A DNA stretch of 64,000 nt from Candidatus Kaiserbacteria bacterium (GTDB taxonomy: Bacteria; Patescibacteriota; Minisyncoccia; Phycocordibacterales; Phycocordibacteraceae): NCBI GenBank assembly GCA_016182485.1, contig JACPGH010000005.1:64305-128304 (forward strand). Reading direction: 5' to 3'. The notes under the pieces were generated by a model. The model worked only from the letters and a program-made list of their open reading frames with translations, searched no databases and was not told the DNA's origin. Below are positions 6,626 through 22,607 of the stretch, in pieces; the stretch's first letter is position 1; the number at the start of each line of letters is the position of its first letter. The position numbers and the translations under genes were made by a program.

Positions 6626-6638
6626 GTATGCCTCCTTT

Positions 6639-6869: not shown

Positions 6870-6919
6870 CGCTCTTCTGAAAATCCAATTCGCATCAGAT
6901 TTTCGGAACAGCGGGCGAA
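6870..6919. repeat. repeat A copy (reverse orientation)
   Basis: Exact reverse complement of 21684-21733 (ttcgcccgctgttccgaaaatctgatgcgaattggattttcagaagagcg). Confidence 0.7.
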
Positions 6920-6922
6920 TTC

Positions 6923-7240
6923 TCATTCGCCCTTGCCTCCTTTCTCAAGTAGCGCTCTAACAACCTTGACGACCTCTTCAACCGGGTGGCACTCCAGAAA
7001 GTCGCGATACCCGGCGCTGATGAGTGGACCACGCCCTTTCCCATTGAGTTCGGCATTGACGTCAGAAATGTCGATCCCGATGAGTTGGAAGGCGCGCACC
7101 ACAGCCTCCGCATTCTCATATACGGCTCCGCAGTACTCGATTTCCCCTTTGAAGGAACTGACTGAACATCCCGTGCATCCTTGAACGGCATAGCCGAAGG
7201 CGAGGCGCAGAACAAAGAGTTTCTCCTCGATACTAAACAT
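6923..7240 (-). CDS. hypothetical protein
   Basis: ORF only. Confidence 0.3.
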   Translation of the reverse strand: MFSIEEKLFVLRLAFGYAVQGCTGCSVSSFKGEIEYCGAVYENAEAVVRAFQLIGIDISDVNAELNGKGRGPLISAGYRDFLECHPVEEVVKVVRALLEKGGKGE

Positions 7241-7418
7241 AGTGCCATTCTCCCAGTTCCTGCCTGCCCTTTCGGGTCAGGGCTTATGGGTTCAATGTTC
7301 AACGTCTCTGGCACCACAATAGCAGGCGCAACACCTTTTGTCAATATTGGTTATGACACAATTAAATGTCATTGGTGTTTGCATTACATAGGTATTTTGA
7401 TACGCTGTCATATATCCT

Positions 7419-8192
7419 ATGACAGGCAGATCCGTGACAGAAGAACAGCCATTGATTAACCGCCTTGCGGAATGGGGGCTGACGCGGGCGGAGGCCGAAG
7501 TGTATGTCTATTTGCTCCAGCGGCCGACCGAGAGCGGCGGGTCGAAGATCGCCGTGGGGACCGGCCTACACCGGCAGTATGTCTATATCGCCCTAGAGAA
7601 GCTCCTTGCTGCAGGCCTCGTTGAGGCAATTCCATTCGGCAAGCATAAAAAGTACAGAGCCCGCTCCCCGCTCGAGATCGAGAAGATCACGCGCAAGAGG
7701 AGTGTGGCGGCAAGCGACCTGGTGCACGAATTGAATAAGATAAGCGCCATTCATAGCGAACAGGACTTCGAAGTGCTGCAGGGCGCAAATCAAATCCAGC
7801 AATATGAGATGGACTATGTCTATGGATGTACGGAGGGAGAAGAGGAGCTCATTATCGGCGGGCATTCCAAAGGTTTTTTCGACCTAATGGGCGATGGTCT
7901 AGAGGAATATATAGAGGAGAAAGAGCGTAAAGGCATAAAAGTACAATATATTGGCAGCTTGAGCGAGAAGCCGCTCTACGAGCTAAACATTAGCTCGTAC
8001 GGAAATCAGAATTATCGCTATTTAGAGGGGATGCACGAAGGAGTAACGCACTTGGTGATCCGGAAAGATTCAGTTTCCTTTTGGAGTTTTCTCACTCCCC
8101 CGCTGGTCTATGTGATCAAGTCTGCGACTGTGGCAGATGACTACCGGAAATTTTTCCAGCTGCTTTGGGATATCGCCGGCAAACAGGGCTAA
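7419..8192 (+). CDS. TrmB-like HTH transcriptional regulator (paralog 2)
   Basis: wHTH (AEVYVYLLQRPTESGGSKIAVGTGLHRQYVYIALEKL) plus family C-terminal tail (FFQLLWDIAGKQG). Confidence 0.6.
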   Translation: MTGRSVTEEQPLINRLAEWGLTRAEAEVYVYLLQRPTESGGSKIAVGTGLHRQYVYIALEKLLAAGLVEAIPFGKHKKYRARSPLEIEKITRKRSVAASDLVHELNKISAIHSEQDFEVLQGANQIQQYEMDYVYGCTEGEEELIIGGHSKGFFDLMGDGLEEYIEEKERKGIKVQYIGSLSEKPLYELNISSYGNQNYRYLEGMHEGVTHLVIRKDSVSFWSFLTPPLVYVIKSATVADDYRKFFQLLWDIAGKQG

Positions 8193-8249
8193 AGGACATC
8201 CTTCAACCCGCTCGGGATGAGTTTTCCACAGGGATGTCCTTTACAATGT

Positions 8250-8560
8250 CTTTTATCATTCTAAACTTGGCTAAGGAGGAGGCGGTGTGCGGCTAGGCTC
8301 AGGACCGGCTCCATTGGATGTTCTTTAGGAGTTCTTTTAACATCAGACGCTCTGTGAGTAACCTGCCTGCGCCAGCGGCGATCCGCTAACACTACCGGGC
8401 ACGGGACCCGAACGGAAGCGCAATAGTGCTTTTGACAAAAGCCACCCACCATTTCTCCGACTGAGGCACCATCATTTACGCCCCGCTCCTTTTACGCCGC
8501 AGTCACCCGCTGGGTGGCTTTGTTGTTTACTCTGAGCTTTAGTGAAGGAAGCGAACTGGC
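8250..8560. ncRNA. candidate structured ncRNA (unidentified; weak SRP-RNA-like GGAAGC motif)
   Basis: About 350 nt with no credible ORF between a terminator-like hairpin at 8196-8252 and the palindromic repeats. Hairpins include gccacccacc...gggtggc. No family confirmed. Confidence 0.2.
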
Positions 8561-8610
8561 CTTCCTATTTAAACTAAGAATGTTTCGCGTGAACCATATA
8601 TGCGTCCAAG

Positions 8611-8721
8611 TTGTGAAGGTCTGACCTTCACAACTTAATGAAAGCAAATTACATTCGATATATTCGCATGATTTACAAGATATATCGGACTGTGAAGGTC
8701 TGACCTTCACAAGTTAATGAA
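8611..8721. repeat. two direct copies of a 23 bp palindrome, TTGTGAAGGTCTGACCTTCACAA(C/G)TTAATGAA, about 80 bp apart
   Basis: Copies at 8611-8642 and 8690-8721, downstream of cca. Confidence 0.65.
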
Positions 8722-8760
8722 GTTGCTTTTAACTCCCATTATCTATTGAAATCAATCGAT

Positions 8761-10269
8761 TTAGCACACGTGGTGTTTTTCCATTATTTGGCGTACTTCC
8801 TCATTTTCGGCGGCTTCCCGCCTTTTCTTCCCCGCTTCCCCAAGCCTCTTGAGTTCATTCTCGTCCAGCATTAACAGTTCTTCGGTTCTCTTATCTAGAT
8901 AGTCATGCACGTTTCGCGCGGAATCGTCCAAGACTTCTTCGAGCAGTGCATTCAGGACATATCCTATCCTAGGCCCCGGTTTCGCGTGGAACTTCTCCAT
9001 TATCCTGGTGCCATCTGTCTTCAGCATCTTCACAGAGATAGGATCTCGAAGAGCCTGTTCCACCATAGCTTTGTACTTCCTGAATCTAAAAGGCTGTTCC
9101 TTAGGCCGTCCCGTCCCAATCCGGTCGCATATACGGAGGTTAAGCAAGTCCCAAATATTTTCCTGTCCAACATTCGTAACCATTCTGCGTACGGCCGATA
9201 ACGTTATCTGATCAGGATCAGAAAAGAACATGTGCCACCGGACAAGCTTTACTACCTTGTCTATTGTTTCGCGTGGAAAGTGCAGCTCCTCTAGAGCTTT
9301 TTTGGTTACACGTGAACCAACCACGTCGTGTCCATGAAAGGTCCAGTCTTTTTTTTCGTCGGACCATCGGCGGCTCTCGGGCTTCGCTATGTCATGGAAG
9401 AGCCCGGCAATCGTAACGTCGAAGCCGAAGCGCTTATCCGCCCCGTGCTGCATTGTACGGAGATTGTGCTCAAAGACATCGTAGCTATGCGCCTGGTTTT
9501 GCTCGACGCCAATACCTCGCACTAAATCGCCGACTATGAATTCGAGAATGCCGAGCTGGTGGGCGAGCACGAGCGCATTCATCGGCTTCTTTGACTCTAG
9601 AATACGCACAAGCTCATCTCGAATCCTCTCGCGCGAAATTTGGCTTAAATGCTGACTGTTTTGCTTAATGGCAGCGGCCGTGTCGCTCTCTATGCCGAAG
9701 TCGAGCTCAGCCACAAGCCGCACGGCCCGGAGCATTCGCAGGGCGTCCTCATCAAAGCGTTCTCCGGCGTTCCCGACGGCTCGTATTATCTTGTCCTTTA
9801 TGTCCTTTTGACCATCATACGGGTCCACTATTTGTCCTTTATCTGCATCGAGAGCGATGGCATTTATCGTAAAGTCACGCCGGGCAAGGTCTTGGAGAAG
9901 GGAAGTGCCAAATTCGACCTTGTCCGGCCGACGCTTGTCGGAATAGCCGGATTCGGTGCGGTAAGGTGTCACCTCGACTATTGCCAGCCGCTCGTCCTCT
10001 GAACCGGTCTTCACGCCCACCGTGCCGTATTCATTTTCATAAAAAGAATCAGGAAATACGGCCTGGATTTGCTCCGGGGTAGCGTTCGTGGTGAGGTCCC
10101 AGTCCTTCGGCTCGCGGCCGAGGATAAGGTCGCGGACACAGCCGCCCACCAAATACGCTTCAAATCCCTTTTCATGAAGGGAGTTCGATACCCGAGAAAT
10201 CTCTTCCGGGATAGGGAAGCGCATATCCACAATGCTAGCATAGCGTGCTAACTTAGATTCGAGGAACAT
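8761..10269 (-). CDS. cca: CCA-adding enzyme (tRNA nucleotidyltransferase with HD domain)
   Basis: GGCVRDLILGR...DWD head motif plus C-terminal HD domain (LFHDIAKP). The start at MFLESK (10269) is chosen because the upstream ORF extension translates across a tRNA. Confidence 0.8.
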   Translation of the reverse strand: MFLESKLARYASIVDMRFPIPEEISRVSNSLHEKGFEAYLVGGCVRDLILGREPKDWDLTTNATPEQIQAVFPDSFYENEYGTVGVKTGSEDERLAIVEVTPYRTESGYSDKRRPDKVEFGTSLLQDLARRDFTINAIALDADKGQIVDPYDGQKDIKDKIIRAVGNAGERFDEDALRMLRAVRLVAELDFGIESDTAAAIKQNSQHLSQISRERIRDELVRILESKKPMNALVLAHQLGILEFIVGDLVRGIGVEQNQAHSYDVFEHNLRTMQHGADKRFGFDVTIAGLFHDIAKPESRRWSDEKKDWTFHGHDVVGSRVTKKALEELHFPRETIDKVVKLVRWHMFFSDPDQITLSAVRRMVTNVGQENIWDLLNLRICDRIGTGRPKEQPFRFRKYKAMVEQALRDPISVKMLKTDGTRIMEKFHAKPGPRIGYVLNALLEEVLDDSARNVHDYLDKRTEELLMLDENELKRLGEAGKKRREAAENEEVRQIMEKHHVC

Positions 10270-10334
10270 TGTGGTTCCTCTCTTCGTCCCGGTATCGTTC
10301 AAGCAAATACCGGAGCTCGCTCGGCGAACTCTTC

Positions 10335-10406
10335 GCCCCGGTGGTGAAATGGATATCACAGCTGACTTCGGATCAGCTATTCTGGGTTCGAATCCTGGCC
10401 GGGGCA
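10335..10406 (+). tRNA. tRNA-Arg (anticodon TCG)
   Basis: Hand-folded 72 nt cloverleaf: acceptor GCCCCGG/CCGGGGC, D arm GTGA/TCAC, anticodon stem GCTGA/TCAGC with loop CTTCGGA, T loop TTCGAAT. No encoded CCA. Confidence 0.7.
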
Positions 10407-10454
10407 CATTGCGAAAGGCGGCCTCAGAGAGGCCGCCCTGTGAGATGCGCGGAA

Positions 10455-10667
10455 CTAGGCTTTGTCGCGAGGCGGTATCCAGCGCGGTAGACCTCGAGGG
10501 CCTACTGACCAGTAGCCGCCCCTCCGCTCCAACCGATCCAGGCGATCGAACTCCTCCTCTGTAGGCTTGTGCCATGGCCGCAAAGCCAATGCCCCCAAGA
10601 TTCCAAAAAGAACAGGCAGTCCGATGAGGAGAAACAAGAGCACTAGCCCACTCCAGTCCCCAAACAC
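10455..10667 (-). CDS. hypothetical small membrane protein
   Basis: One TM helix followed by a charged tail. Confidence 0.3.
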   Translation of the reverse strand: MFGDWSGLVLLFLLIGLPVLFGILGALALRPWHKPTEEEFDRLDRLERRGGYWSVGPRGLPRWIPPRDKA

Positions 10668-10669
10668 AG

Positions 10670-10888
10670 CTACCTCCCTTCTGGATGAATGCGTCGAACA
10701 AGGCGGCCAGTCTTGTTGATGTGCAGCTGCCGGAGCGCCTTCCCGATCTGCCGACGCTCGTGCCGGATCGCGGAGGGGAAGTCTTTGTGCTTGCCAGACT
10801 GCACCTCCTTGAGCAAATCTACGTAGCAGGCGTTGAGGAACTGCAAGAGTCCTCTTACTGCCGGTTTGTTGAATCCGCTTGGTGGCAT
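10670..10888 (-). CDS. hypothetical protein
   Basis: ORF only. Confidence 0.25.
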   Translation of the reverse strand: MPPSGFNKPAVRGLLQFLNACYVDLLKEVQSGKHKDFPSAIRHERRQIGKALRQLHINKTGRLVRRIHPEGR

Positions 10889-11012
10889 TTCGCCCTCCTC
10901 TCGTGTACTTGCCCCAAATTGGAATATAAAAACTGTAAATAATTTAGCAAGGAAGCGGGCATATTTCTATGGAAATTGTACTTTTCGTTCAAAATCCATT
11001 ATTCTATCTGCA

Positions 11013-11858
11013 ATGCTTTACAGCAAGGACATCGAACTAGAGGATAAAGTCATCGAATCGCTGGCCGCCGGCAGCATGAGCATCAATGCTATCCACTCGC
11101 GTCTCGGGAAAGATACAAAGGTCTCCCTGCGCGCGGTGTATAAGGCGATAGACAAGCTCCGCAAAGCCGGTGTCCTCTTGAAAGCGGGGAAGCGAGTACT
11201 GATTGATCAAGAGTGGGCCAAGCGAGTCGAGGAGAAATTCAACGCCATCGTCCCCGCTTTTCTCTTGCAGAAGGGCGAGCGCGCAGTCTACTCGTTCACC
11301 TCGATAGAGAACTTGGACGCTTTCTGGAAAACCATCGTCTTGCCGCTCGAGCGTTCCGTTCCGAACGGAGAGATCTTTTTCTATAATCCGCACAATTTCT
11401 GGGCGTACATGCCCGCCCGGAAGGAAAGTGAAGATGCGTATTATCGGCACTTTGCCGAAACTAACCGATTCGGCTTCTTCACGGTCGGCGGAGATACTGC
11501 GGCAGATATTGAATTCAAGCGGGCGTATCAAAACGACCGCCTTCAAATTGACTTGCAGCCCATCGCCGCGCTCGGCCGACGAGACCACATTACCGTAGTC
11601 GGACCCTTCATCATCACCGTTCGGCTTGCTAAAGGCATTGCTGAGCGTATCGACGAACTGTATGCGTCTGGGGAAGGGATCGAGTATCTCCTCCTCGCAA
11701 TTTCTCAGACCTGCGAACGCCCGGGGAAGGTCCGATTTGTCCTTGAGAATAACCCCGCTAGAGCTTCAGAACTACGCCGGCTACTGGCTAAAAATTTCTA
11801 CTTCACCTCCTCTGAGTACGGGCATGGAGGCTCCATACCTGCACCTCGTTCGGCATAA
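11013..11858 (+). CDS. TrmB-like HTH transcriptional regulator (paralog 3)
   Basis: wHTH (MSINAIHSRLGKDTKVSLRAVYKAIDKLRKAG), preceded by an AT-rich promoter region. Start at the internal M (MLYSKD). Confidence 0.5.
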   Translation: MLYSKDIELEDKVIESLAAGSMSINAIHSRLGKDTKVSLRAVYKAIDKLRKAGVLLKAGKRVLIDQEWAKRVEEKFNAIVPAFLLQKGERAVYSFTSIENLDAFWKTIVLPLERSVPNGEIFFYNPHNFWAYMPARKESEDAYYRHFAETNRFGFFTVGGDTAADIEFKRAYQNDRLQIDLQPIAALGRRDHITVVGPFIITVRLAKGIAERIDELYASGEGIEYLLLAISQTCERPGKVRFVLENNPARASELRRLLAKNFYFTSSEYGHGGSIPAPRSA

Positions 11859-11895
11859 TAGAATCAAACTAGTTCGTTTCTCTTAGGTCACTCGG

Positions 11896-11966
11896 TGCGG
11901 GTAGCCGGGATCGAACCGGCGCTAGCTGATTGGCAACCAGCTGTTCTACCACTAAACCATACCCGC
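11896..11966 (-). tRNA. tRNA-Gly (anticodon GCC)
   Basis: 71 nt cloverleaf on the minus strand: acceptor GCGGGTA/TACCCGC, anticodon loop TTGCCAA, T arm GCCGG-TTCGATC-CCGGC. No encoded CCA. Confidence 0.8.
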
Positions 11967-12150
11967 GAACACTGTTTATCTTCTCATATTCCTGCAATCT
12001 ATTCAATTCAGAGGCAAACTGGGGCTTGCCAAACTGAAATGTCGTTGGGGAAAACTCAGTGGATATGTGGATAAAAGACACTTGGGGATTTATGAAGAAT
12101 TCTTAATAGTCCGTGAAATACTACGTATATGAGCCATATTTTTAAAGGCC

Positions 12151-12546
12151 GTGGACTTAAGTGACAAAACGCGGAAAGAGATAGGCGCTTTGGGGGAAAA
12201 TGTAGCCGCGGAGTACCTGCGCCGGCGGGGTTTCTCGATCCTGGACCGAAATTTCGTGCGCAAAACCGGCGAACTCGACTTGATCGCTGCAGAGGGAGAT
12301 ACCCTGCATTTCGTAGAGGTAAAAACTGTTTGTACCGATTCCTTTCCTAAAACAGAGACGGGTGAAGATGAATATGATCCGGCAGTCAATCTACACCAAA
12401 ACAAGATCCGGCATGTTGCGCGGACAGGCGAGTGGTATGTCCTTGAGAAAAACTGGGGAGGGGAGTGGCAGGTGGACGGCTGCCTCGTGTGGCTGCGCCG
12501 CCGTGACGGCGTAGCGCGGGTTCGCTACCTGCCGCAAATTGTGTAA
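12151..12546 (+). CDS. YraN-family (UPF0102) endonuclease
   Basis: GE..AA.YL...GF.IL.RN....GELDLIA....L.FVEVKT pattern. Confidence 0.7.
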   Translation: MDLSDKTRKEIGALGENVAAEYLRRRGFSILDRNFVRKTGELDLIAAEGDTLHFVEVKTVCTDSFPKTETGEDEYDPAVNLHQNKIRHVARTGEWYVLEKNWGGEWQVDGCLVWLRRRDGVARVRYLPQIV

Positions 12547-12668
12547 AGTAAAAGCATGCGAAAGCGGGCTGTGCCCGCCGTAGCATAAGCCTCGGCGGGC
12601 CGGCGTATGACGGTAGTACGCATCCTTTGGGAGGATGATGACCGAGTCCGACTCTCGGCGGCCCGACA

Positions 12669-13646: not shown

Positions 13647-13650
13647 GCCC

Positions 13651-14977: not shown

Positions 14978-14979
14978 CA

Positions 14980-15258: not shown

Positions 15259-15325
15259 AGTAATTACATTTTTTATACAGCGTACTCATTAAAATATTAA
15301 AATCAAATTAAGAAAATTCAGAATT

Positions 15326-15353
15326 TTGACAAGCGAATTCAGTTATGCATAAT
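15326..15353 (+). promoter_or_regulatory. sigma70-like promoter (TTGACA, 16 bp spacer, CATAAT)
   Basis: Consensus -35 and near-consensus -10 in an AT-rich spacer upstream of the 15388 gene. Confidence 0.35.
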
Positions 15354-15387
15354 GAAAAGCGGGAAATCTTTCACGGAGGAGGTCCGC

Positions 15388-15651
15388 ATGTGGCAAGATG
15401 TGCTTCGTGCAATCGGCCGGGGACTCGCGGCGGTGGCCACGGCGCTGTTCCTGCCGCCCCTTCAGGCGACCGGCGATGCCTTGGGCGCCTTCGTCCGCCG
15501 GCTCGCGCCATTCGTGGTGCTCGGGATCATTTTCCTGATCCTATGGCACACGAACCCGCAACTGCTGAACACGCTTCTCGAGTTCGGCATTGCGGTCGCG
15601 GTGATCATCGTCGCCTTCTGGGCGATTGGCAGGGGCCACCGCCGACGATGA
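15388..15651 (+). CDS. hypothetical small membrane protein
   Basis: Strong SD (GGAGGAGG) 6 nt before the ATG. Two TM helices. Confidence 0.4.
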   Translation: MWQDVLRAIGRGLAAVATALFLPPLQATGDALGAFVRRLAPFVVLGIIFLILWHTNPQLLNTLLEFGIAVAVIIVAFWAIGRGHRRR

Positions 15652-15756
15652 GCCGCAAGCGAAACGCTTGCCTCCGGAGGAAGGCGGGCGTTCGTTCCAA
15701 TCGCGGCTCTCCCGAGCCGCGATTTGCTTTATCCTGAAAAAGAGTACGCTAATCCC

Positions 15757-16959
15757 ATGGAACCCCTAGCAGCCCGGATTCGGCCGCAGACCTTGGACGA
15801 GGTCGTCGGGCAGGAACATCTTGTCGGAGAAGGGAAGCCCTTGCGGGTCGCGGTCGAGAAGAAACATTTATTTTCTTTTATTCTCTGGGGCGCGCCCGGG
15901 ACCGGGAAGACAACTATCGCGCGCATCTATGCGCGAGCGCTCGATGCCGCGCTGTATGAGCTCTCGGCGGTCTCCGCCGGCAAAGAAGACATTCGCAAAA
16001 TTGTCCAACCGAGAAGTACCTTAGCGAAGCCTATAGGCCAAACTAAGGTACTGGCGGCAGAAATGGCGCAAGAGAGACCGAAAGTCCTTTTTCTGGACGA
16101 GATACATCGCTTCAATAAAGCACAGCAGGATTTCCTCCTGCCCTATGTCGAGAGCGGGGAACTGACGCTTATCGGCGCGACGACGGAGAATCCGTCGTTC
16201 GAAGTGATCGCTCCATTACTATCGCGCTGCCGCGTCTTCGTGCTCGAGCCGCTCTCTGAAGAAGCCCTGCGCGCCATCGTGAAAAGCACCAAACTGAAAG
16301 TAGATAGAGCCGCGTTCGAGTGGCTCCTCGGATACGCGAACGGCGACGCGCGCAAGGCGCTCGGGATGCTCGAAGGCGCGACGAGCTTGTACGGGAAAGT
16401 TTCTGTTGACACCTTGAACCGCGCGCTCGAATCGCCGCACCTGCGCTACGACAAGAAAGGCGAGGAGCACTACGACACCATCAGCGCATTCATTAAAAGC
16501 ATGCGGGCAAGTCAGCCGGATGCGGCGCTCTATTATCTGGCGCGCATGGTCGAGGCAGGCGAGGACCCGCTCTTTATCGCCCGCAGAATGGTCGTGTTCG
16601 CTTCCGAGGATATCGGCCTTGCCCAGCCGACGGCGCTCGTCGTCGCGAACGAAGTCTTCCGCGCTTGCGAGACGATCGGCTACCCGGAGTGCGCCATCAA
16701 TCTAGCCCACGGCGTCGCGTATCTCGCGCAAGCCAAGAAAGACCGCTCAGCTTACGACGCCCTGCGCGCCGCCCAAGCGGATGTGCGCACCTTCGGCAAT
16801 CTCCCGGTCCCGAAAAAAATCCGCAATCCGGTCACGAAGCTCATGAAAGAGCTCGACTACGGCAAGGGCTATGAAAAATACCCCTCGAAGGGACTCGGGG
16901 CAAGTCCCGACGAATCCTATCTGCCGGACAAATTAAAGAAAAAGAAGTACTTGAAGTAG
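15757..16959 (+). CDS. rarA: replication-associated recombination protein A (AAA+ ATPase RarA/MgsA)
   Basis: Walker A (GAPGTGKTT), Walker B (LFLDEIHRFNK) and the RarA C-terminal region. Confidence 0.85.
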   Translation: MEPLAARIRPQTLDEVVGQEHLVGEGKPLRVAVEKKHLFSFILWGAPGTGKTTIARIYARALDAALYELSAVSAGKEDIRKIVQPRSTLAKPIGQTKVLAAEMAQERPKVLFLDEIHRFNKAQQDFLLPYVESGELTLIGATTENPSFEVIAPLLSRCRVFVLEPLSEEALRAIVKSTKLKVDRAAFEWLLGYANGDARKALGMLEGATSLYGKVSVDTLNRALESPHLRYDKKGEEHYDTISAFIKSMRASQPDAALYYLARMVEAGEDPLFIARRMVVFASEDIGLAQPTALVVANEVFRACETIGYPECAINLAHGVAYLAQAKKDRSAYDALRAAQADVRTFGNLPVPKKIRNPVTKLMKELDYGKGYEKYPSKGLGASPDESYLPDKLKKKKYLK

Positions 16960-16984
16960 CGAAACTCATGTGGACTGCACAAAA

Positions 16985-17809
16985 TCAGCGTGCCGATTCT
17001 TTATTACCCTCCACCTCTGCAATAATCCCTCGTAAAATCTCGTTCGCATCTATGACGCGCGAATGATCCTGCATGAATTTGAGGAACGAGAGCAGCATCT
17101 TTTGGATTTCAGAATTGCGGATCTCAATAACCAGCTCTTCTCCGAGGGCCATCAGGTAGATGGATTGTTTAAAAATGAAGACCTGGCTGGCATGGTTAAA
17201 ATATTCGCCTTCTACCACACCCACTCTCGTCGTGCGGCCTTCGAAATCCCTCGCCCACGAGACTCCCAATTCTCTCGCCATTCTTTCAAGCTCCCCGTCT
17301 TGGAATATTGACTCGGCAATGATGTTGTTTTTCTTCAGCGCACGATTGAAACGGTTCGTCTCCTGAAGAGAGAACGTTTTATTCCAATTTACAGCCGCAC
17401 TATCGCCAACGAGAGAATAGAATCTCTCATTCTTGTGCGCAAAGAGCAGTTCGCCCAGCACCTTTCGAATCGAGTCCTGGCCGCGATGAATGATGACCGT
17501 GGCATCCGAAAGGCCGTGCACCTCCTCAGTCCCTTCCGGAATCTTTAGAAGCGTCCGCTTAGCCGCATACAGCACCCCCTCGATATCTCGCTCGGGGGCG
17601 AGCCGCCACATTTTCTTGCCGCTCGTAATATGAGACTCAGCCAAACCGCGCTTTTTCAGATTGTAGAGAATCGCGTAGGCCGCCGTGCGAGACACTCTCG
17701 TTGCACGCGCCAATAAAAGAGGCGTATCAACACCACTCTGGAGGGCAGTGAGTATCTTTTCTTCTTTCTTTGAGAGTCCAAGTAGCTTGAGGGTTTCAGA
17801 AGCGGGCAT
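16985..17809 (-). CDS. TrmB-like HTH transcriptional regulator (paralog 4)
   Basis: wHTH (EEKILTALQSGVDTPLLLARATRVSRTAAYAILYNLKKRGL). Divergent from the peptide/radical-SAM operon. Confidence 0.6.
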   Translation of the reverse strand: MPASETLKLLGLSKKEEKILTALQSGVDTPLLLARATRVSRTAAYAILYNLKKRGLAESHITSGKKMWRLAPERDIEGVLYAAKRTLLKIPEGTEEVHGLSDATVIIHRGQDSIRKVLGELLFAHKNERFYSLVGDSAAVNWNKTFSLQETNRFNRALKKNNIIAESIFQDGELERMARELGVSWARDFEGRTTRVGVVEGEYFNHASQVFIFKQSIYLMALGEELVIEIRNSEIQKMLLSFLKFMQDHSRVIDANEILRGIIAEVEGNKESAR

Positions 17810-17991
17810 ACCGGAAGGGTAGCAAATGGGGCAATTCTGTCAAGTTATTTAGACACATATATACTCTGAAATTGCTATTTAGAATAAGACTTTTCTATCA
17901 GTAATCACTCTATGACAGGATTATTTTTTACTGTCAACTGCAAGACGAATACACTTAATTCAGACCGATCCTTGAAAGGAGGTGAACGCCC

Positions 17992-18063
17992 ATGCCGACG
18001 GCCAACTCGGGTTCCGCCGGGAAGAGCCGCAAGGCTCTGCCGGCCAAGCGCCCCTCCAAGTAG
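17992..18063 (+). CDS. 23-aa peptide MPTANSGSAGKSRKALPAKRPSK (candidate precursor peptide 1)
   Basis: SD GGAGGTG 8 nt upstream. Near-identical to the peptide 100 bp downstream. Confidence 0.5.
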   Translation: MPTANSGSAGKSRKALPAKRPSK

Positions 18064-18166
18064 GGCGCGGGGAACCTGTCAGCTCCGGGCTGACCGAGTG
18101 CGCGCGCCACTTGGGAACAGAAGTGCGCGCAGCATTCAAAACACCAAGAGAAAGGAGGTGATGTCC

Positions 18167-18238
18167 ATGGCCACAGCCAACGCCGGTTCCGCTGGCAAGA
18201 GCCGCAAGGCTCTGCCGGCAAGACGCCCCTCCAAGTAG
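18167..18238 (+). CDS. 23-aa peptide MATANAGSAGKSRKALPARRPSK (candidate precursor peptide 2)
   Basis: SD AAAGGAGGTG upstream. The alternative start at 18161 gives MSMATAN.... Confidence 0.5.
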   Translation: MATANAGSAGKSRKALPARRPSK

Positions 18239-18244
18239 GAGACG

Positions 18245-18275
18245 GGCGGAAGCGGGGACTTGTCCCCGCTTCTTT
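18245..18275 (+). terminator. hairpin plus T-tract (partial terminator/attenuator) between the peptide genes and the radical-SAM gene
   Basis: ggaagcggggacttgtccccgcttctttgtt. Confidence 0.4.
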
Positions 18276-18297
18276 GTTATCAACCCAGACTGCTACT

Positions 18298-19656
18298 ATG
18301 GAGAGGACAATGGAAGGCCAACCGAAGCAGAAACTCGAGAGCCAAGAAGCGCTGTCAGAACTGACGTTGCAGACCGAGCTGCGCGAGAGCGGGGAGTACG
18401 CCTACGCCCCGTCCGCATCGCACTGGTACTGGAACATGGTGGACGGCAAGCCGTTCAGCGACACGCAGAAAGCGGAGCTTCTCCTGGCGCAAAAAGACGA
18501 GCTTCCGTATCTGGTCTCCGCCTTGTTGGAGAGGACCTGCAATCTCCGCTGCGCGCACTGCATCTACCAAGACGAGCAGAGCAGCAGGAAGGCGTCGGAG
18601 GAAGGCCAGCTAGCGGCGGTCGTCGAGCACATAATCCGTACGATGCCGCAAGGCCCCGCAGAGCAGAGGGCCAAGTTCATGTCCGCCGGCAGAATCCTGC
18701 GGCCGTGGCACCTCGACATCTTCAAGAAACTTCGCGAGAGCCGGCCGGACGTGCAGCTTGGCGTCATCGACAACGGCACGTACACGAAACTGTTGCGCAC
18801 ATGGCCAGAAGGATTGCAACTGGACTGGCTCGACATCTCTGTGGACGGCACCGAGGCGAACCATGACAAGCAGAGAGGGGAGTCCTCATACGCCGCGGCT
18901 ATGGAGGGACTGCGGCATGCGCGCGAAATCACTCGCTCTCGTGAAGAGGGCGGATATGTGGCATCGCTGCTGACGCTCACCAACATCAACGCGGGCGACG
19001 TCTTGCAAGTAGCCAATACTCTTCTCAATGAGAAGGCCGGCGAACCGCTGGCAGACAAGCTGAACCTCACGACCATGGGGCCGACCAACGCGATCAATGC
19101 GCGCCTCGAGATAAGTCAGCTCGACTTCGCGCAGGCGTGGGACGGACTCAAAGAGGCGTGTGCGAAATACAACACGCCAGGCAACGAGCGTGTCTCGCTC
19201 GGCCTGTACCGCGTCGAGGACGTGGAGAAGCTCGCCGCAGTGGTCGGAGAAGGGAAATTCTTAGAGTCCTTTCCAGCCGACGAGGACAAGGCGCGCGAGC
19301 GGGTCACGTTCCGAGGCAACTTCGTCGAAACGCATGTCGACGGCGTGCCCGTCTCCTACCTGCCCATCTCGATCTGGCCGCCTGAAGAATTCTTGATCGA
19401 TGCGGATGGGGCATACCGCCTCGCCTACGAAGGCCAGTTCACGCTCGAGGAGCTGCGTGCGGGCTCACAAGAAAGCTGGGACGGCCACAGCGCGCGCGAC
19501 TACACCGTCACGCAGCTCACGCCAGAGACGGACTTCCGCGCTGTGTACGAGCAAGCCGTGGATATCTACTGGCAACGCTTCGGCCACGCAAAGCTCGATC
19601 AGGAATTCGCCGCGTTCGCGCGAATACGCGAAAAGGCCCGACAAGAGGGCAGGTAA
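18298..19656 (+). CDS. radical SAM enzyme (CX3CX2C; no obvious SPASM cysteines)
   Basis: LLERTCNLRCAHCIYQ radical-SAM cluster motif at about residue 85. Only one other Cys, so a SPASM/twitch domain is unlikely. Start could be 18298 or 18310 (SD GGAGAGG). Confidence 0.7.
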   Translation: MERTMEGQPKQKLESQEALSELTLQTELRESGEYAYAPSASHWYWNMVDGKPFSDTQKAELLLAQKDELPYLVSALLERTCNLRCAHCIYQDEQSSRKASEEGQLAAVVEHIIRTMPQGPAEQRAKFMSAGRILRPWHLDIFKKLRESRPDVQLGVIDNGTYTKLLRTWPEGLQLDWLDISVDGTEANHDKQRGESSYAAAMEGLRHAREITRSREEGGYVASLLTLTNINAGDVLQVANTLLNEKAGEPLADKLNLTTMGPTNAINARLEISQLDFAQAWDGLKEACAKYNTPGNERVSLGLYRVEDVEKLAAVVGEGKFLESFPADEDKARERVTFRGNFVETHVDGVPVSYLPISIWPPEEFLIDADGAYRLAYEGQFTLEELRAGSQESWDGHSARDYTVTQLTPETDFRAVYEQAVDIYWQRFGHAKLDQEFAAFARIREKARQEGR

Positions 19657-19671
19657 AAACATGGATGTAAC

Positions 19672-19708
19672 GGTCCCGCATTCATCGCTGAATGCGGGAC
19701 TTCTTATT
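19672..19708 (+). terminator. rho-independent terminator
   Basis: gtcccgcattcatcgctgaatgcgggac + ttcttatt. Confidence 0.5.
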
Positions 19709-19729
19709 GGTTAGAGCGAAAAGGCCGAT

Positions 19730-19918
19730 ATGGTATACTCGAATCGTATGACTTTAGCTCAAGTCAAAAAACTCGTGCGACAAACGGAGAAGGCGGCGAA
19801 GCTCGTCTCGCGCAACCGCCTCCTCATCGAGACGTATTTGAGCATGCGAGAGGCTAAAGAAGGGAAAGTAACCTCGCATAAATCAACGAAAGCATTGTTC
19901 AAGCGCCTGCATATATGA
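19730..19918 (+). CDS. putative antitoxin of a RelE/ParE-type TA pair
   Basis: 62 aa basic protein. Its stop overlaps the toxin start (ATGA). Confidence 0.4.
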   Translation: MVYSNRMTLAQVKKLVRQTEKAAKLVSRNRLLIETYLSMREAKEGKVTSHKSTKALFKRLHI

Positions 19919-20190
19919 TCCCCGAGCGGCGAATCGATACTACGCCGCACTTTGATCATGCACTCACGCACTTTCTCAAAGCTCACCCAGACCTGCGGGA
20001 GAAGACACTTGTCCTCATTGATCGACTCGCAATAGACCCTTTTGACCCACGCAACAAGACGCATCGGTTATCAGGCCCGCTCAAGTCGCTGTGGGGAGCG
20101 CATATTTCATTTCAGTATCGCCTCATATTCGCGATTTCGGACGACGCCATTTTGTTAATAAACACAGGTTCGCACGATGAGGTGTATTAG
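19915..20190 (+). CDS. RelE/ParE-family toxin (mRNA interferase)
   Basis: C-terminal LSGPLKSLWGAHISFQYRLIFAISDD..LLINTGSHDEVY resembles the RelE/ParE/YoeB family. Confidence 0.65.
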   Translation: MIPERRIDTTPHFDHALTHFLKAHPDLREKTLVLIDRLAIDPFDPRNKTHRLSGPLKSLWGAHISFQYRLIFAISDDAILLINTGSHDEVY

Positions 20191-20201
20191 CAGAGCCTAA
20201 T

Positions 20202-20984
20202 TTAAGCATCGAGCGTCATCCACTGGAGCGCGAAGATGCTTTTCAGCGTTCGGGCGATGCCGGCGCTCTCAATAATGAGCCCGAGCTGGTCCTGAAAGGA
20301 CATGATGCCGATTCTGTCCGGCCCGTAGAGATTGACCTCGACCAAGAGAGGGAATTGTTCCGGGTCGATGAGTTTGGTGGTGCGTAAGGACTTGTTATCT
20401 ATGCCCTTATAGTCCCGGATTATCGGCAGATCCGGCGCGATCGCTTCTACCCAGATCTTTTTCTCCAGCCGCTTCGGCACATAGTATTCATCGAGAAATT
20501 TCTGATCGAATTTATGGATCATTTCTTCCGAAACCCACGTCTGCATCTTTTGATCCGGAAAGCGGAGCGTGTCTTTGTACACGTCTTTAATTCCTTCGAT
20601 GCCTTCGAAATAGCGAATGCGCGGCTTTTTCTTCAGCGTGTTCGTGATGGAGAGCAATTCAGGCAAAATCTTCTCGATCGAAGATTTCTTTTCGTCGAGC
20701 AATTCGACTATTTTCCGCGGGTCCTCCGCTATGTATATGATTTTCTTTTGTCTTTTGGCCGTACTCACGAGTCCGGAACGCTTGAGCGATTCCACGGTGT
20801 CATAAAGGGTCGTCCGTTTCAGCTTAGACTTCTTCACGAGCTGGCCCATGTGAGCCTCGCCAAGCTCGAGGAGAGCCAGGTAGGCCGCAGCCTCCTTGTC
20901 GTCGAGCCCGGTGCCTTTCAAATCAGAAATCGTCATGGTTTTGGTATAAGTGTCGTCCTTTAGGTCAACTTTTACATCATACAC
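20202..20984 (-). CDS. TrmB-like HTH transcriptional regulator (paralog 5)
   Basis: wHTH (KEAAAYLALLELGEAHMGQLVKKSKLKRTTLYDTVESLKRSGL) plus the family C-terminus. Start may be the internal M (20936). Confidence 0.6.
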   Translation of the reverse strand: MYDVKVDLKDDTYTKTMTISDLKGTGLDDKEAAAYLALLELGEAHMGQLVKKSKLKRTTLYDTVESLKRSGLVSTAKRQKKIIYIAEDPRKIVELLDEKKSSIEKILPELLSITNTLKKKPRIRYFEGIEGIKDVYKDTLRFPDQKMQTWVSEEMIHKFDQKFLDEYYVPKRLEKKIWVEAIAPDLPIIRDYKGIDNKSLRTTKLIDPEQFPLLVEVNLYGPDRIGIMSFQDQLGLIIESAGIARTLKSIFALQWMTLDA

Positions 20985-21132
20985 AAAGCCAGTATTTATG
21001 CAACTTTCTAGGCACTATTGGCCGGAATATGACCCATTTATTGACATTACTACTCCACGGTGTCATAATGGCCTCAGGAAGTTGAACATTGATCCGTAAG
21101 TCCTGAGCCGCAAGGCCAGGCAGGACGAGGAG

Positions 21133-21633
21133 ATGGCAATGAAGATCCTGGTGATTGATGACAAGATCGCGAATCAGGAGTCCGCCCGCACCACGCTCGC
21201 GGGACACGACCTGACAGTTCTCGGCACTACCGTCGAGGCCGGAGCCCTGTTCAGCAAGTACAGCAAAGTGAAGTTCGACTTCGACGTCGTGCTGACCGAC
21301 CTCATGATGCCGGTCGATCACAAGGGCTACGCCGGCCAGTCCACGCCCTTCGGGCCTGACGGCACGGCGGTCGACCCTGCGTCCTGCGTCGGCGAAAAGC
21401 CCGTCGGGCTCGGGTTCGCTCTGCTCGCTGCCAAGAAAGGCGCGAAGTTCGTCGCCGTGGTGACGGGTATCGGCCATCACTCCGACCCGATCGTCGCCCA
21501 GTTCGATTTCTTCGGATACGGAGAAAGCACGATTCGCGTGGAGGACGCGAAGGTGATGCTCGTCAACGGTGGCGGCACATCCGAGCACGTGAAGGACTGG
21601 GGAGCGGTCTTAGAAGCGCTCATTAAGAAGTAG
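21133..21633 (+). CDS. CheY-like receiver-domain protein (single-domain response regulator, atypical C-terminus)
   Basis: MKILVIDD...DVVLTDLMMP receiver signature. The overlapping minus-strand ORF 20977-21588 is judged spurious. Confidence 0.6.
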   Translation: MAMKILVIDDKIANQESARTTLAGHDLTVLGTTVEAGALFSKYSKVKFDFDVVLTDLMMPVDHKGYAGQSTPFGPDGTAVDPASCVGEKPVGLGFALLAAKKGAKFVAVVTGIGHHSDPIVAQFDFFGYGESTIRVEDAKVMLVNGGGTSEHVKDWGAVLEALIKK

Positions 21634-21667
21634 CCTCCAGCGTGGAGCAAACCACGTTAAAAAGCTC

Positions 21668-21733
21668 GGGCGAAGTGCAATGCTTCGCCCGCTGTTCCGA
21701 AAATCTGATGCGAATTGGATTTTCAGAAGAGCG
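21668..21733. repeat. hairpin (gggcgaagtgcaatgcttcgccc) plus repeat A copy (21684-21733)
   Basis: 50 bp identical to the reverse complement of 6870-6919. About 150 bp upstream of the NYN gene. Confidence 0.7.
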
Positions 21734-21881
21734 GATGGGGTTATCTACAGCGGCAAGACTTCATGTTGACCTCGTGTGTGGATAGGTTATACTGGCTATG
21801 AAAATCACCGGCGCCTCCCGCAAGGGATTGTGCCGGTTTTTCGTTCTCCAATAACGAGAATCACATGCTACCATCATTTGC

Positions 21882-22550
21882 ATGAGAGAAACCGAACGTG
21901 TCGAGATTCTCATCGACGCAGGGAACTTCTATCATCTTGCGCTTAAGAAACTTGGCGTCGCGGAAATAGATTTCGATTATGAGGCCTTTGTTTCTTTTCT
22001 CATGAACGGCCGCACGCTCGTCCCTGAAGGGAAGCGATTATATGTCGGTACCGTACGCGAAAAAGAAGGCGATTTGAGGACGAAGAACGCGATGGCCGAA
22101 CAGCGCCGGTTCTTGTCAGTGCTCCTATCGGCGAAATGGCAGATAAAGACCAGCAAACTCCGATCGCGCATTGAAGAGATAGCTGTTGATTCGCGCATGC
22201 AGGAGTACAAAACTCTGACTGCCGCGGGTGTTCAAACGATTCACGTTGAACGCATGCGCGAAAAGGGTATCGATGTGAAAATCGCGACTGATCTCATCGT
22301 CGGAGCAGTAGACGATAAATATGATACTGCAATTGTCATCAGTTCAGATACCGATTTAGTTCCCGCCATTGACTGGGTTCGGATGCGAAAGAAGAAACGC
22401 GCCGAGTACGTAGGATTTTCAATTCCCGATGCTCGCGGCAACGCCTATGCGTCGAAGCCGACGTTTGCGCTCATCGCGCGGACGGATGTCCAGCGCATCC
22501 TAGTTGAATCGGACATACGGCGTTTTATTAAGCAAAAACTCATGCCATAG
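21882..22550 (+). CDS. NYN-domain (LabA/DUF88-like) protein, second copy
   Basis: IDAGNFYH...GIDVKIATDLIVGAVDDKYDTAIVISSDTDLVPAI. Confidence 0.65.
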   Translation: MRETERVEILIDAGNFYHLALKKLGVAEIDFDYEAFVSFLMNGRTLVPEGKRLYVGTVREKEGDLRTKNAMAEQRRFLSVLLSAKWQIKTSKLRSRIEEIAVDSRMQEYKTLTAAGVQTIHVERMREKGIDVKIATDLIVGAVDDKYDTAIVISSDTDLVPAIDWVRMRKKKRAEYVGFSIPDARGNAYASKPTFALIARTDVQRILVESDIRRFIKQKLMP

Positions 22551-22557
22551 CGCAACG

Positions 22558-22607
22558 CTTCGCCCGCTGTTCTGAGAACCGATCGAGTTCGGGATTCAGA
22601 AGAGCGG
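22558..22607. repeat. diverged repeat A copy immediately after the NYN gene stop
   Basis: cttcgcccgctgttctgagaaccgatcgagttcgggattcagaagagcgg. Same orientation as 21684-21733. Confidence 0.6.

What the first reader, a model, noticed from the sequence alone, without database searches (positions are those of the whole stretch)
6870..22607. Repeat A: exact 50 bp repeat at two distant loci plus a diverged copy, flanking a NYN-domain gene as direct repeats
The sequence ttcgcccgctgttccgaaaatctgatgcgaattggattttcagaagagcg occurs at 21684-21733. Its exact reverse complement occurs at 6870-6919.

In both cases the unit lies in the 5' leader of a downstream gene, in the same orientation relative to that gene. 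The genes are the NYN-domain gene 21882-22550 and the zinc-ribbon ORF 6639-6800. The upstream copy is preceded by a short hairpin (gggcgaagtgcaatgcttcgccc).

A diverged copy (22558-22607) sits immediately after the NYN gene stop. The NYN gene is therefore bracketed by direct repeats of A.

Perfect 50 bp identity 15 kb apart implies recent mobility or gene conversion. The conserved leader position suggests a cis-regulatory RNA or promoter module.
Basis: seen in the sequence. Interest (0 to 1): 0.55.

Follow-up and report, generated by a model that had tools for sequence, protein, structure and literature searches.

The report
Gene-end RNA hairpin repeat family
The 50-base repeat is real, but it is one copy of a small family of two- to three-hairpin elements that sit just behind stop codons and between small genes in a group of tiny uncultured (Patescibacteria/CPR) bacteria. 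It most likely punctuates messenger RNAs and does not mark a mobile NYN gene.

Summary
Observation confirmed. The 50-mer occurs exactly at 6870-6919(-) and 21684-21733(+), with a diverged copy at 22549-22610(+). I found a fourth copy at 4705-4789(-) and a weak fifth at 48432-48510(+).

Each copy is a module of adjacent hairpins: P1, P2, sometimes an upstream P0 plus A-tract, and sometimes a downstream P3 plus GUUCUUU. About 25 homologous copies occur in related Patescibacteria MAGs and metagenome contigs, some as co-oriented arrays between small ORFs.

All three helices covary, including between subtypes with no sequence similarity. G·U pairs far outnumber A·C, and orientation follows the genes, not replication. 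This points to an RNA-level element.

Copies start 0-45 nt after the stop codon of functionally unrelated genes. P3 is present only when another cistron follows.

There is no transposase, no integron integrase, no TIR/TSD and no Rfam match. The NYN gene is a conserved core gene with its own conserved promoter and leader, and its relatives lack the element.

Best reading: a REP-like gene-end and intercistronic "punctuation" element, acting in termination, processing or mRNA-end protection and homogenised by gene conversion. The function is inferred, not shown. It is a new member of a known kind and of moderate interest.

The parts
21641..21663 (+). P0 hairpin (CGTGG-agcaaa-CCACG) plus TTAAAAA tract upstream of copy c2. 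Read on the minus strand, the A-tract becomes a U-tract after P1.
   Evidence: Sequence. P0 covaries in homologues: CGTGG/CCACG, CGTAG/CTACG, CGTGC/GCACG. The minus-strand terminator scan flags P1 plus AGCTTTTTAA.
21668..21737 (+). Copy c2: P1 (21668-21690) immediately followed by P2 (21690-21733). It starts 9 nt (P0) or 35 nt (P1) after the stop of the CheY-like gene (21133-21633). It has no P3.
   Evidence: R1 84.9 bits. RNA fold -37.8 kcal/mol, z -4.9. Position table.
22549..22610 (+). Copy c3: degenerate P1 (5' arm missing; the NYN stop codon TAG overlaps its start) plus an intact P2 (22565-22606) with a different, still paired apex.
   Evidence: R1 53.4 bits; fold; alignment A1.
6844..6932 (-). 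Copy c1, intercistronic form. P1 is at 6913-6932, with the TGA stop of orf105 in its loop. P2 is at 6870-6913. P3 is at 6857-6874 and shares 5 nt with the P2 3' arm. GUUCUUU is at 6848-6854. A Shine-Dalgarno site and the ATG of the zinc-ribbon ORF (6800) follow.
   Evidence: R2 76.2 bits; R1 73 bits. P3 is flagged as terminator-like. Folds.
4705..4789 (-). Copy c4. It has a long P1 (4751-4789) carrying a nested 25-nt palindrome, then P2 (4709-4751). It begins 10 nt after the stop of the HTH_31 gene (4800-5192, -) and abuts the stop of the convergent ExoIII gene (3911-4705, +).
   Evidence: the repeat finder I17; sequence; R1 68.4 bits; fold -46.9 kcal/mol, z -7.0.
48432..48510 (+). Weak, diverged fifth candidate with the same P1|P2 layout (GAAGGGGTCGTC..GACGACCCCTTC | ACTCTTTA..TAAAGAGT). 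It lies 10 nt after the stop of a secreted 147-aa ORF (47978-48421) and before the next co-oriented gene.
   Evidence: R1 22.5 bits, E 0.002; sequence and ORFs; fold z -6.6.
6407..7344 (-). Host operon of c1: promoter-like site 7344-7316, orf105 (7240-6923), c1, zinc-ribbon ORF (6800-6639), orf82 (6655-6407). The canonical terminator follows just downstream at 6263-6237.
   Evidence: Promoter and terminator scan; ORFs; Pfam.
21766..21841 (+). NYN's own promoter (TTGACC-16-TATACT, 21766-21793) and conserved leader hairpin with U-tract (21808-21841). These separate c2 from the NYN ORF and are not part of Repeat A.
   Evidence: alignments A3 and A4; homologous loci L022, L025, L026, L032-L034.

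Best explanation
Repeat A is the most conserved stretch (the 3' arm of P1 plus all of P2) of a multi-copy, transcribed, gene-end and intercistronic hairpin module. The module is found in one lineage of Patescibacteria; the window's NYN protein is listed by NCBI under Candidatus Kaiserbacteria.

The full module is P0, an A-tract, P1, P2, P3 and GUUCUUU. It is read in the sense of the flanking genes and begins within about 0-45 nt of the upstream gene's stop codon.

Most likely mechanism (inferred):
- P1 and P2 fold in the mRNA directly behind the stop codon. They define and protect the 3' end of the upstream cistron, either by hairpin-dependent termination without a U-tract or by blocking 3' exonucleases.
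- In copies of the c2 type, the A-tract plus P1 also reads as a canonical terminator for converging transcription.
- Where another cistron follows, the module is extended by P3, which would cap the 5' end of the downstream message after processing or attenuate read-through. P3 competes with the base of P2 for 3-5 shared nucleotides.

The element is general-purpose and not tied to a gene family. The perfect identity of the copies at 6870 and 21684 reflects concerted evolution (gene conversion) between paralogous copies, not transposition.

Shown: the copies, their structure and covariation, strand bias, positions and distribution. Inferred: transcription of the element, the termination/processing/stability function, and gene conversion.
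For: (1) Family. There are 4 strong copies in the window. Homologues occur in two GTDB MAGs and 10 metagenome contigs. The covariance models add diverged copies that form co-oriented arrays: 5 in 2.4 kb of L010, 3-4 in L002, and 2 each in L005, L015 and L020.

(2) Structure. In A2, 14 of 19 P2 pairs show changes on both sides (89.5% of cells paired). P3 shows 4 of 7 (97% paired) and P1 shows 5 of 8. No shuffle out of 500 reaches the observed covariation score, and slid-partner controls fall to 36-56% paired (A1). 'Type B' copies share no stem sequence with type A but keep the same three abutting helices and GUUCUUU.

(3) RNA strand. G·U versus A·C counts in P2 are 28:2 (A1) and 19:4 (A2). The predicted origin region (ORFs read as dnaA and dnaN by their N-terminal sequences, my reading, at 57-60 kb) puts the minus-strand copies (c1, c4) and the plus-strand copies (c2, c3) on one replichore in opposite orientations. 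Orientation therefore follows transcription.

(4) Position. 17 of 22 copies have a same-strand ORF ending no more than 130 nt upstream. In three of them the stop lies inside or overlaps the start of P1. Every P3-bearing copy is followed by a Shine-Dalgarno site and a start codon 40-90 nt after P2. Most P3-less copies are followed by a convergent gene or by a gene with its own promoter.

(5) The upstream genes are unrelated in function: CheY-like, HTH_31, NYN, orf105, a secreted protein and a membrane protein.

(6) c2 and c4 are the only structures where their transcripts must end. Strong hairpins right after stop codons, often without a U-tract, are common in this window.

(7) The element is 87-92% identical between genomes whose genes are 66-73% identical.
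Against: - No expression data exist, so transcription and any 3' or 5' ends at the element are not shown.
- On the sense strand P1-P2 have no U-tract, so intrinsic termination is not demonstrated.
- In L005 and L021 a canonical terminator follows P2 by 8 nt, so P1-P2 cannot be the only terminator there.
- The role of the conserved GUUCUUU is unexplained. Pairing with the Shine-Dalgarno site is predicted in only 3 of 9 leaders.
- The invariance of the P2 base in type A copies is partly an artefact of the exact-match search pattern used to find them.
- Several copies lie at rearrangement junctions, which also fits a DNA-level role.
- Only 64 kb of the source genome was seen, so the genome-wide copy number is unknown.
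Confidence: 0.5

Rival explanations
1. Cis-regulatory leader or attenuator. The module is a 5'-UTR switch in which the base of P2 and P3 are mutually exclusive. It would control transcription read-through or translation of the downstream small genes (zinc-ribbon, lipoprotein, small membrane proteins), perhaps in response to a protein or to translation of the upstream ORF. P3-less copies would be decayed remnants.
For: - P3 overlaps the P2 3' arm by 3-5 nt in all subtypes, and the overlap covaries.
- The MFE and centroid folds flip between full P2 and upper P2 plus P3.
- P3 plus GUUCUUU is scored terminator-like.
- The element-then-zinc-ribbon unit recurs in three genomes.
- Stop codons lie inside P1 in c1 and L010a.
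Against: - About half of the copies lack P3 and any downstream co-oriented cistron, yet still keep covarying P1 and P2.
- Apart from a short AUUG on the 3' side of the P2 apical loop, there are few conserved unpaired nucleotides of the kind seen in ligand-binding aptamers.
- The mismatches in the P2 base are not conserved between subtypes.
- The downstream genes are unrelated in function.
- Anti-Shine-Dalgarno pairing is inconsistent, 3 of 9.
Confidence: 0.25
2. DNA-level element. It would be a recombination or insertion hot spot, or a cassette boundary (integron-attC-like or MITE/REP-like), that mobilises or shuffles small genes. NYN and other modules would have been inserted at it.
For: - Co-oriented arrays of small ORFs are separated by the repeat (L010, L002).
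- The segment downstream of the orthologous copy varies between genomes: nothing in L005, a putative MNT/HEPN toxin-antitoxin pair (my reading of the translations) in L014, and NYN plus c3 in the window.
- L020 is L005-like upstream and 99.4% L001-like downstream, and the switch lies at the element.
- Homology to L022 covers exactly 21739-22549, between c2 and c3.
- Exact 50-nt identity implies DNA exchange between copies.
Against: - There are no RYYYAAC/GTTRRRY core sites and no TIR or TSD.
- The only recombinase in the window is Xer-type. The integron-integrase model scores 126.6 bits against a cut-off of 265.
- No transposase, RAYT or reverse transcriptase was found.
- The G·U bias favours the mRNA-sense strand.
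- NYN is a core gene, and its relatives lack the element.
- The mosaic contigs may be assembly chimeras at a repeat.
- Other insertions here are flanked by duplicated gene 3' ends, not by the element.
- No hits were found in viral contigs.
Confidence: 0.12
3. Operator DNA for the TrmB-like regulators. Several TrmB-like paralogues (three in the window) are encoded divergently next to element-bearing operons.
For: The TrmB-like genes at 5419-6189, 7419-8192 and 20202-20984 each diverge from an operon that ends with or contains a copy. L001, L005 and L018 show the same association.
Against: - The copies lie at operon 3' ends or between cistrons, not at promoters.
- Stem covariation and the G·U bias are not expected for a double-stranded DNA operator.
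Confidence: 0.03

Closest known systems
REP/BIME elements (repetitive extragenic palindromes of Enterobacteria and Pseudomonas)
   Same: Short imperfect palindromes. They are multi-copy and extragenic, and lie at gene 3' ends or between cistrons. They are transcribed with the operon, and some copies sit within a few nt of stop codons. They are thought to stabilise upstream mRNA or attenuate read-through, and they undergo concerted evolution.
   Different: Here the unit is two to three abutting hairpins of about 70-150 nt, and the architecture is kept across subtypes with unrelated sequence. No GTAG-type head, no inverted BIME pairing and no RAYT gene were seen in 64 kb. Copy number looks low, 4-5 per 64 kb.
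Intrinsic (Rho-independent) terminators, including bidirectional and U-tract-less or tandem-hairpin forms
   Same: GC-clamped hairpins directly after stop codons, at places where transcripts must end. The A-tract plus P1 forms a canonical terminator on the opposite strand. P3 plus GUUCUUU passes a simple terminator scan.
   Different: There is no U-tract after P1 or P2 on the sense strand. The sequence is conserved between genomes far above the level of neighbouring genes. P3 occurs where read-through is needed, not where termination is needed.
MIRU (mycobacterial interspersed repetitive units) and other intercistronic repeats
   Same: They lie in the intercistronic regions of operons and are oriented with the operon. 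The upstream stop codon can overlap the repeat, and a ribosome-binding site for the next gene follows.
   Different: MIRUs are tandem direct repeats with little hairpin structure and carry short ORFs. The ATG in the P3 loop here is not in a conserved frame.
Integron attC sites and cassette arrays
   Same: Co-oriented small promoter-less ORFs are separated by structured repeats whose structure is better conserved than their sequence.
   Different: There are three hairpins, not one. There are no R''/R' core sites and no integron integrase. The strand that folds is the mRNA-sense strand.
Processing-site plus stem-loop modules that set differential mRNA stability within operons (for example B. subtilis cggR-gapA cleaved by RNase Y, or Rhodobacter puf intercistronic hairpins)
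   Same: A hairpin ends the upstream segment and another hairpin starts the downstream segment. An RNase Y gene is present in this genome (25170-26699).
   Different: Those sites are single-copy and operon-specific. No cleavage has been shown here.

Membership tests
IS element terminal repeat / MITE | Terminal inverted repeats flanked by a target-site duplication; a transposase in the element or elsewhere in the genome | tested here: not met
   Flanks of the four copies share nothing beyond the hairpins. No transposase, RAYT or reverse transcriptase was found among ORFs scanned against Pfam and NCBIfam. No hits in viral contigs.
REP/BIME | Extragenic imperfect palindrome, co-transcribed, at gene 3' ends or between cistrons | tested here: met
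   Positions and orientation; hairpins. Transcription itself was not tested.
REP/BIME | High copy number and an associated RAYT (Y1 transposase) gene in the genome | not testable with these tools
   Only 64 kb of the genome is available. It holds 4-5 copies and no RAYT.
Intrinsic terminator | GC-rich hairpin followed directly by a U-tract on the transcribed strand | tested here: inconclusive
   Sense strand: no U-tract after P1 or P2. P3 plus AUGUUCUUUG of c1 passes the scan. Antisense strand: P1 of c2 plus AGCUUUUUAA passes.
Integron attC / cassette array | R'' (RYYYAAC) and R' (GTTRRRY) core sites bracketing a single bulged hairpin | tested here: not met
   Neither motif is found at the element ends. 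GTTCTTT does not fit GTTRRRY. There are three hairpins, not one.
Integron attC / cassette array | Integron integrase (IntI) nearby | tested here: not met
   The only tyrosine recombinase (2196-3134) scores about 236 bits on the XerD, XerC and XerA models, and 126.6 bits (cut-off 265) on TIGR02249 integron integrase.
Riboswitch or ligand-sensing leader | Conserved unpaired nucleotides forming a binding core; association with functionally related genes | tested here: not met
   Loops and internal mismatches vary between subtypes, apart from a short conserved AUUG at the P2 apex. The flanking genes are unrelated.
Any Rfam 15 family | Match at the family's gathering score | tested here: not met
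   The window gave only tRNAs. Permissive scans of c2, L010, L002 and L005 gave only sub-threshold, inconsistent hits.
DNA uptake sequence (DUS/USS-type inverted pairs) | Core 8-12-mer strongly over-represented throughout the genome | tested here: not met
   Element 8-10-mers occur essentially only inside the copies.

The most novel reading that the evidence does not exclude
The module is a previously undescribed CPR-specific RNA 'operon punctuation' switch made of three abutting helices, in which the base of P2 and P3 exclude each other. Termination of translation at a stop codon inside or next to P1, or an RNase or RNA-binding protein, would decide whether the downstream small-protein cistron is expressed. 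Because the module is repeated, it would also serve as the homology at which small-gene modules are exchanged between strains by natural transformation.
Probability: 0.15. Interest if true: 0.6.

Novelty: new member of a known kind. Interest (0 to 1): 0.35.

Why it matters
Almost nothing is known about how Patescibacteria (CPR) bacteria, with their tiny genomes, end, process or stabilise transcripts. This is a covariation-supported RNA motif that is not in Rfam and recurs behind stop codons and between small-protein genes in several uncultured genomes.

If it works as proposed, it would mark transcript boundaries for annotation and give a handle on operon structure in organisms that cannot be cultured. 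It also explains assembly breaks and possible chimeric joins in MAGs.

On the negative side, it removes the suggestion that the NYN gene is a mobile cassette.

Tried and rejected
- IS end or MITE: no TIR or TSD and no transposase.
- Integron attC: no core sites and no IntI.
- NYN-specific leader or cassette: the CM found no element in six NYN loci of relatives, and NYN has its own conserved promoter and leader.
- Leader peptide: the P3 loop nearly always contains ATG, but its frame relative to GTTCTTT and the resulting peptides differ between copies. Rejected.
- GUUCUUU as an anti-Shine-Dalgarno sequence: pairing probabilities support it in only 3 of 9 leaders. Left open, but weak.
- Self-cleaving ribozyme or aptamer: there is no conserved internal-loop core, and the G·G and C·A mismatches of type A are perfect pairs in other subtypes.
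- Uptake sequence: the element words are not over-represented.
- Rfam: nothing. GP20-b scored 17.9 bits over P0 only and did not recur in orthologous loci.
- DGR template/variable repeat: the differences between c2 and c3 are not adenine-specific (read directly from the sequence).
- Phage origin: 0 hits in viral contigs.
- Homologue search with the 53-aa zinc-ribbon protein found nothing, so the breadth of the leader could not be extended that way.
- Distant CheY-like loci (33-41% identity) gave only marginal CM hits.
- Literature searches found no description of such an element.


Full report
**1. The observation**

The 50-mer occurs exactly once on each strand, at 21684-21733 (+) and 6870-6919 (-). 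No further match appears with up to three mismatches, and none appears in 100 dinucleotide shuffles (I1). The hairpin before the + copy and the diverged copy after the NYN stop are both present.

Two things were missed. A fourth full copy lies at 4705-4789 (-), found through the repeat finder I17. The minus copy also has its own preceding hairpin, GGGCGAAtgagaaTTCGCCC.

An independent public assembly of the same organism (L028) starts exactly at base 21684 and is otherwise identical. An exact repeat breaking an assembly graph would produce this.

**2. Anatomy**

Every copy is a pair of abutting hairpins (z-scores -3.9 to -7.0). P1 is GC-rich with a variable loop and length. P2 has the base CGCUGUUCYGA...UCAGAAGAGCG and a variable but paired apex.

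- Copy c2 has in addition an upstream hairpin P0 and a UUAAAAA tract.
- Copy c1 has a third hairpin P3, GAGCGAAgaugUUCGCUC. Its 5' arm re-uses the last 5 nt of P2. P3 is followed by GUUCUUU, a Shine-Dalgarno site and the zinc-ribbon ATG.

**3. Relatives**

One exact-pattern scan of GTDB genomes and one of JGI metagenomes returned 2 and 10 true homologues, plus unrelated chance matches.

A covariance model of P1+P2 (R1) and one of P1, upper P2, P3 and GUUCUUU (R2) found only the four copies in the window, plus a weak fifth at 48432-48510.

In the fetched loci the models also found diverged copies that form co-oriented arrays between small ORFs: five in the 2.4-kb contig L010, three to four in L002, and two each in L005, L015, L020 and L021.

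'Type B' copies have entirely different stem sequences: GGUCGAGC..GCUCGACC, CCCACCAAAGUUUUCAA..UUGAAAGUUUUGGUGGG, and GGGCGAAAugUUUGCCC. They keep the same three abutting helices, the P2/P3 overlap and GUUCUUU.

The window's NYN protein is 100% identical to an NCBI entry named Candidatus Kaiserbacteria. The loci share synteny with the window at 65-80% DNA identity. Distant relatives give only marginal hits.

**4. RNA or DNA?**

- Covariation is strong. In A2, 14 of 19 P2 pairs, 4 of 7 P3 pairs and 5 of 8 P1 pairs change on both sides, with 86-97% of cells paired. No shuffle out of 500 reaches the observed covariation score, and slid-partner controls collapse (A1).
- One caveat applies. The invariance of the type A P2 base is partly imposed by my search pattern. 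The copies found by the models do vary there, with compensation.
- G·U pairs outnumber A·C 28:2 and 19:4 in P2, so the gene-sense strand is the one that folds.
- The ORFs I read as dnaA and dnaN lie at 57-60 kb, so all copies are on one replichore. Copies c1 and c4 point the opposite way from c2 and c3. Orientation therefore follows transcription, not replication.

**5. Position**

- Of 22 copies, 17 have a same-strand ORF ending within 130 nt upstream, and usually within 45 nt. In c1, c3 and L010a the stop codon lies inside P1 or overlaps its start.
- All P3-bearing copies are followed by a Shine-Dalgarno site and a start codon 40-90 nt after P2.
- Most P3-less copies are followed by a convergent gene or by a gene with its own promoter.
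- The upstream genes are unrelated: CheY-like, HTH_31, NYN, orf105, a secreted protein and a membrane transporter. This argues for a general-purpose element and against a specific riboswitch.
- Copies c2 and c4 are the only structures where their transcripts must end.
- On the opposite strand, P1 of c2 plus AGCUUUUUAA is a canonical terminator.
- Strong hairpins right after stop codons, often without U-tracts, are common in this window.

**6. The NYN 'bracket'**

- NYN has more than 1000 homologues at about 60% identity across Patescibacteria.
- In close relatives it sits in the order RarA (recombination-associated ATPase) gene, NYN, then the convergent HU and RNase Y genes. The models find no element there.
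- Homology between the window and L022 spans exactly 21739-22549. That stretch is NYN's own promoter (TTGACC-16-TATACT), a conserved leader hairpin and the ORF.
- So c2 is the end-module of the CheY-like unit, at the same position as in L014. In L005 and L020 a type B copy follows that gene. Copy c3 is a partly degenerate copy behind NYN.
- Nothing indicates that NYN is a mobile cassette.
- The window holds no transposase, RAYT, reverse transcriptase or integron integrase. The recombinase at 2196-3134 is Xer-type.

**7. Mechanism**

The umbrella reading I commit to is an RNA-level punctuation module.

- P1 and P2 end and protect the upstream cistron.
- P3 appears only when a cistron follows. 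It would cap or attenuate the downstream message.
- The base of P2 and P3 are near-isoenergetic alternatives. MFE and centroid folds differ on which one forms.

The closest analogues are REP/BIME elements and intra-operon processing or stability hairpins.

The 50/50 identity of c1 and c2 suggests gene conversion, because related copies in other genomes (L002a, L010a) with the same apex type differ from them at 1-3 positions.

What remains unexplained:
- the conserved GUUCUUU, for which anti-Shine-Dalgarno pairing is predicted in only 3 of 9 leaders;
- the ATG in the P3 loop, which has no conserved frame;
- the canonical terminator that follows P2 in L005.

**8. Rivals**

- A 5'-UTR switch for small genes remains plausible for the P3-bearing copies.
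- A DNA recombination-site role is suggested by arrays, by variable cargo downstream of the orthologous copy, and by a mosaic contig that switches parent at the element. It lacks every defining feature of attC, MITE or IS elements, and the mosaic could be an assembly artefact.
- Uptake sequence, ribozyme, DGR and TrmB-operator readings were examined and set aside (section 'tried and rejected').

**9. Verdict**

The repeat is real and non-random. It belongs to a conserved, structured, probably RNA-level family of gene-end and intercistronic elements in a Patescibacteria lineage, and it is not in Rfam. It is a new member of a known kind (REP-like or terminator-like intergenic repeats). Its function is untested and its interest is moderate.

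Noticed in passing
window 21766-21841; also L022 5900-5975, L025, L026, L032-L034 upstream of NYN: The NYN gene's real leader is a sigma-70-like promoter followed by a 5'-proximal hairpin (CCGGCGCCUCCC-GCAA-GGGAUUGUGCCGG) and a U-tract. It is near-invariant where NYN DNA is only 69-76% identical. In Liptonbacteria, Wildermuthbacteria and another Patescibacteria locus it is kept with compensatory changes (CCUG../..CAGG, CCCG../..CGGG, and different apical stems with GNRA or UUCG loops). It is not in Rfam. It is a candidate conserved attenuator or leader of Patescibacteria NYN (LabA-like) genes, and may be more interesting than Repeat A.
   Followed up: partly
window 4671-4707 and 6198-6234: A 37-nt direct repeat (86% identical) is the 3' end of the ExoIII gene (…DHCPVSIVLS*) duplicated as an in-frame remnant (DHCPVSIALS*). 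The two copies flank a 1.49-kb segment (4708-6197) that carries copy c4, the HTH_31 gene and a TrmB-like gene. It looks like the footprint of a one-sided-homology (homology-facilitated illegitimate) insertion.
   Followed up: partly
L022 5800-5845 and 6680-6730: In a relative, the NYN module is flanked by two diverged copies of the last ~48 nt of the RarA gene. The copy after NYN resembles the RarA ends of other genomes (L025 and the window) more than L022's own current RarA end. This is the same type of footprint as at ExoIII in the window.
   Followed up: partly
window 4757-4781, 5246-5270, 31440-31464: The 25-nt perfect palindrome AGTGATGGACACGTCGTGTCCATCA occurs three times. One copy is nested in the P1 stem of c4, just after the HTH_31 gene. 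One lies 54 nt upstream of that same gene. One lies next to a small 93-aa gene I read as antitoxin-like. It may be an operator for the XRE-type regulator.
   Followed up: no
window 17990-18071 and 18165-18246, with 18274-19656: Two tandem 82-nt repeats (84% identical) each encode a ~23-aa lysine/proline-rich peptide (MPTANSGSAGKSRKALPAKRPSK). They lie directly upstream of a 460-aa radical-SAM protein and diverge from a TrmB-like gene. The layout looks RiPP-like, though the peptides contain no cysteine.
   Followed up: no
window 1727-1753, 1794-1818, 38111-38137, 49639-49665, 50492-50515: Short runs of a heptamer-like unit (TAGGCKC)n occur at five intergenic sites on both strands. They contain the most over-represented 10-mers of the window (CTAGAGCCTA, 10 times).
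   Followed up: no
window 44206-44244, 54988-55026, 55333-55371; 29003-29030 and 60330-60357; 8612-8642 and 8691-8721: There are further families of repeated intergenic hairpins: CCCCGTTGGAAAT..ATTTCCAACGGGG, AAGTAAAGAGGTTTRACCTCTTTACTT, and TGTGAAGGTCTGACCTTCACAA twice. This genome re-uses several gene-end hairpin sequences, not only Repeat A.
   Followed up: no
L020 3878-7970 versus L001 3485-7577; L020 upstream versus L005: Contig L020 is 99.4% identical to L001 from the first base of the P1 3' arm/P2 onward. Upstream it is L005-like (96% just upstream of the element) and only 85-87% similar to L001. This is either a recombination junction at the element or a chimeric metagenome assembly at a shared repeat.
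   Followed up: partly
window 5419-6189, 7419-8192, 16985-17809, 20202-20984: There are four TrmB-like regulator paralogues (22-30% identical to each other). Each is transcribed divergently from a small-gene unit, and three of those units end with or contain a Repeat A copy. The same pairing is seen in L001, L005, L018, L029 and L031.
   Followed up: partly
window 56009-59895; 32615-35717; 43344-45092: The window appears to contain the replication-origin region. I read these ORFs as yidC, rnpA, dnaA and dnaN from their N-terminal sequences; they were not scanned. It also contains competence machinery: ORFs I read as PilB- and PilC-like type IV pilus genes (same basis), and ComEC (Pfam hit). 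Natural transformation is therefore plausible in this organism.
   Followed up: no
window 1199-1714 (-): A second, shorter NYN-domain gene (171 aa; Pfam E 1e-35) lies 20 kb from the first. No Repeat A copy is next to it.
   Followed up: no
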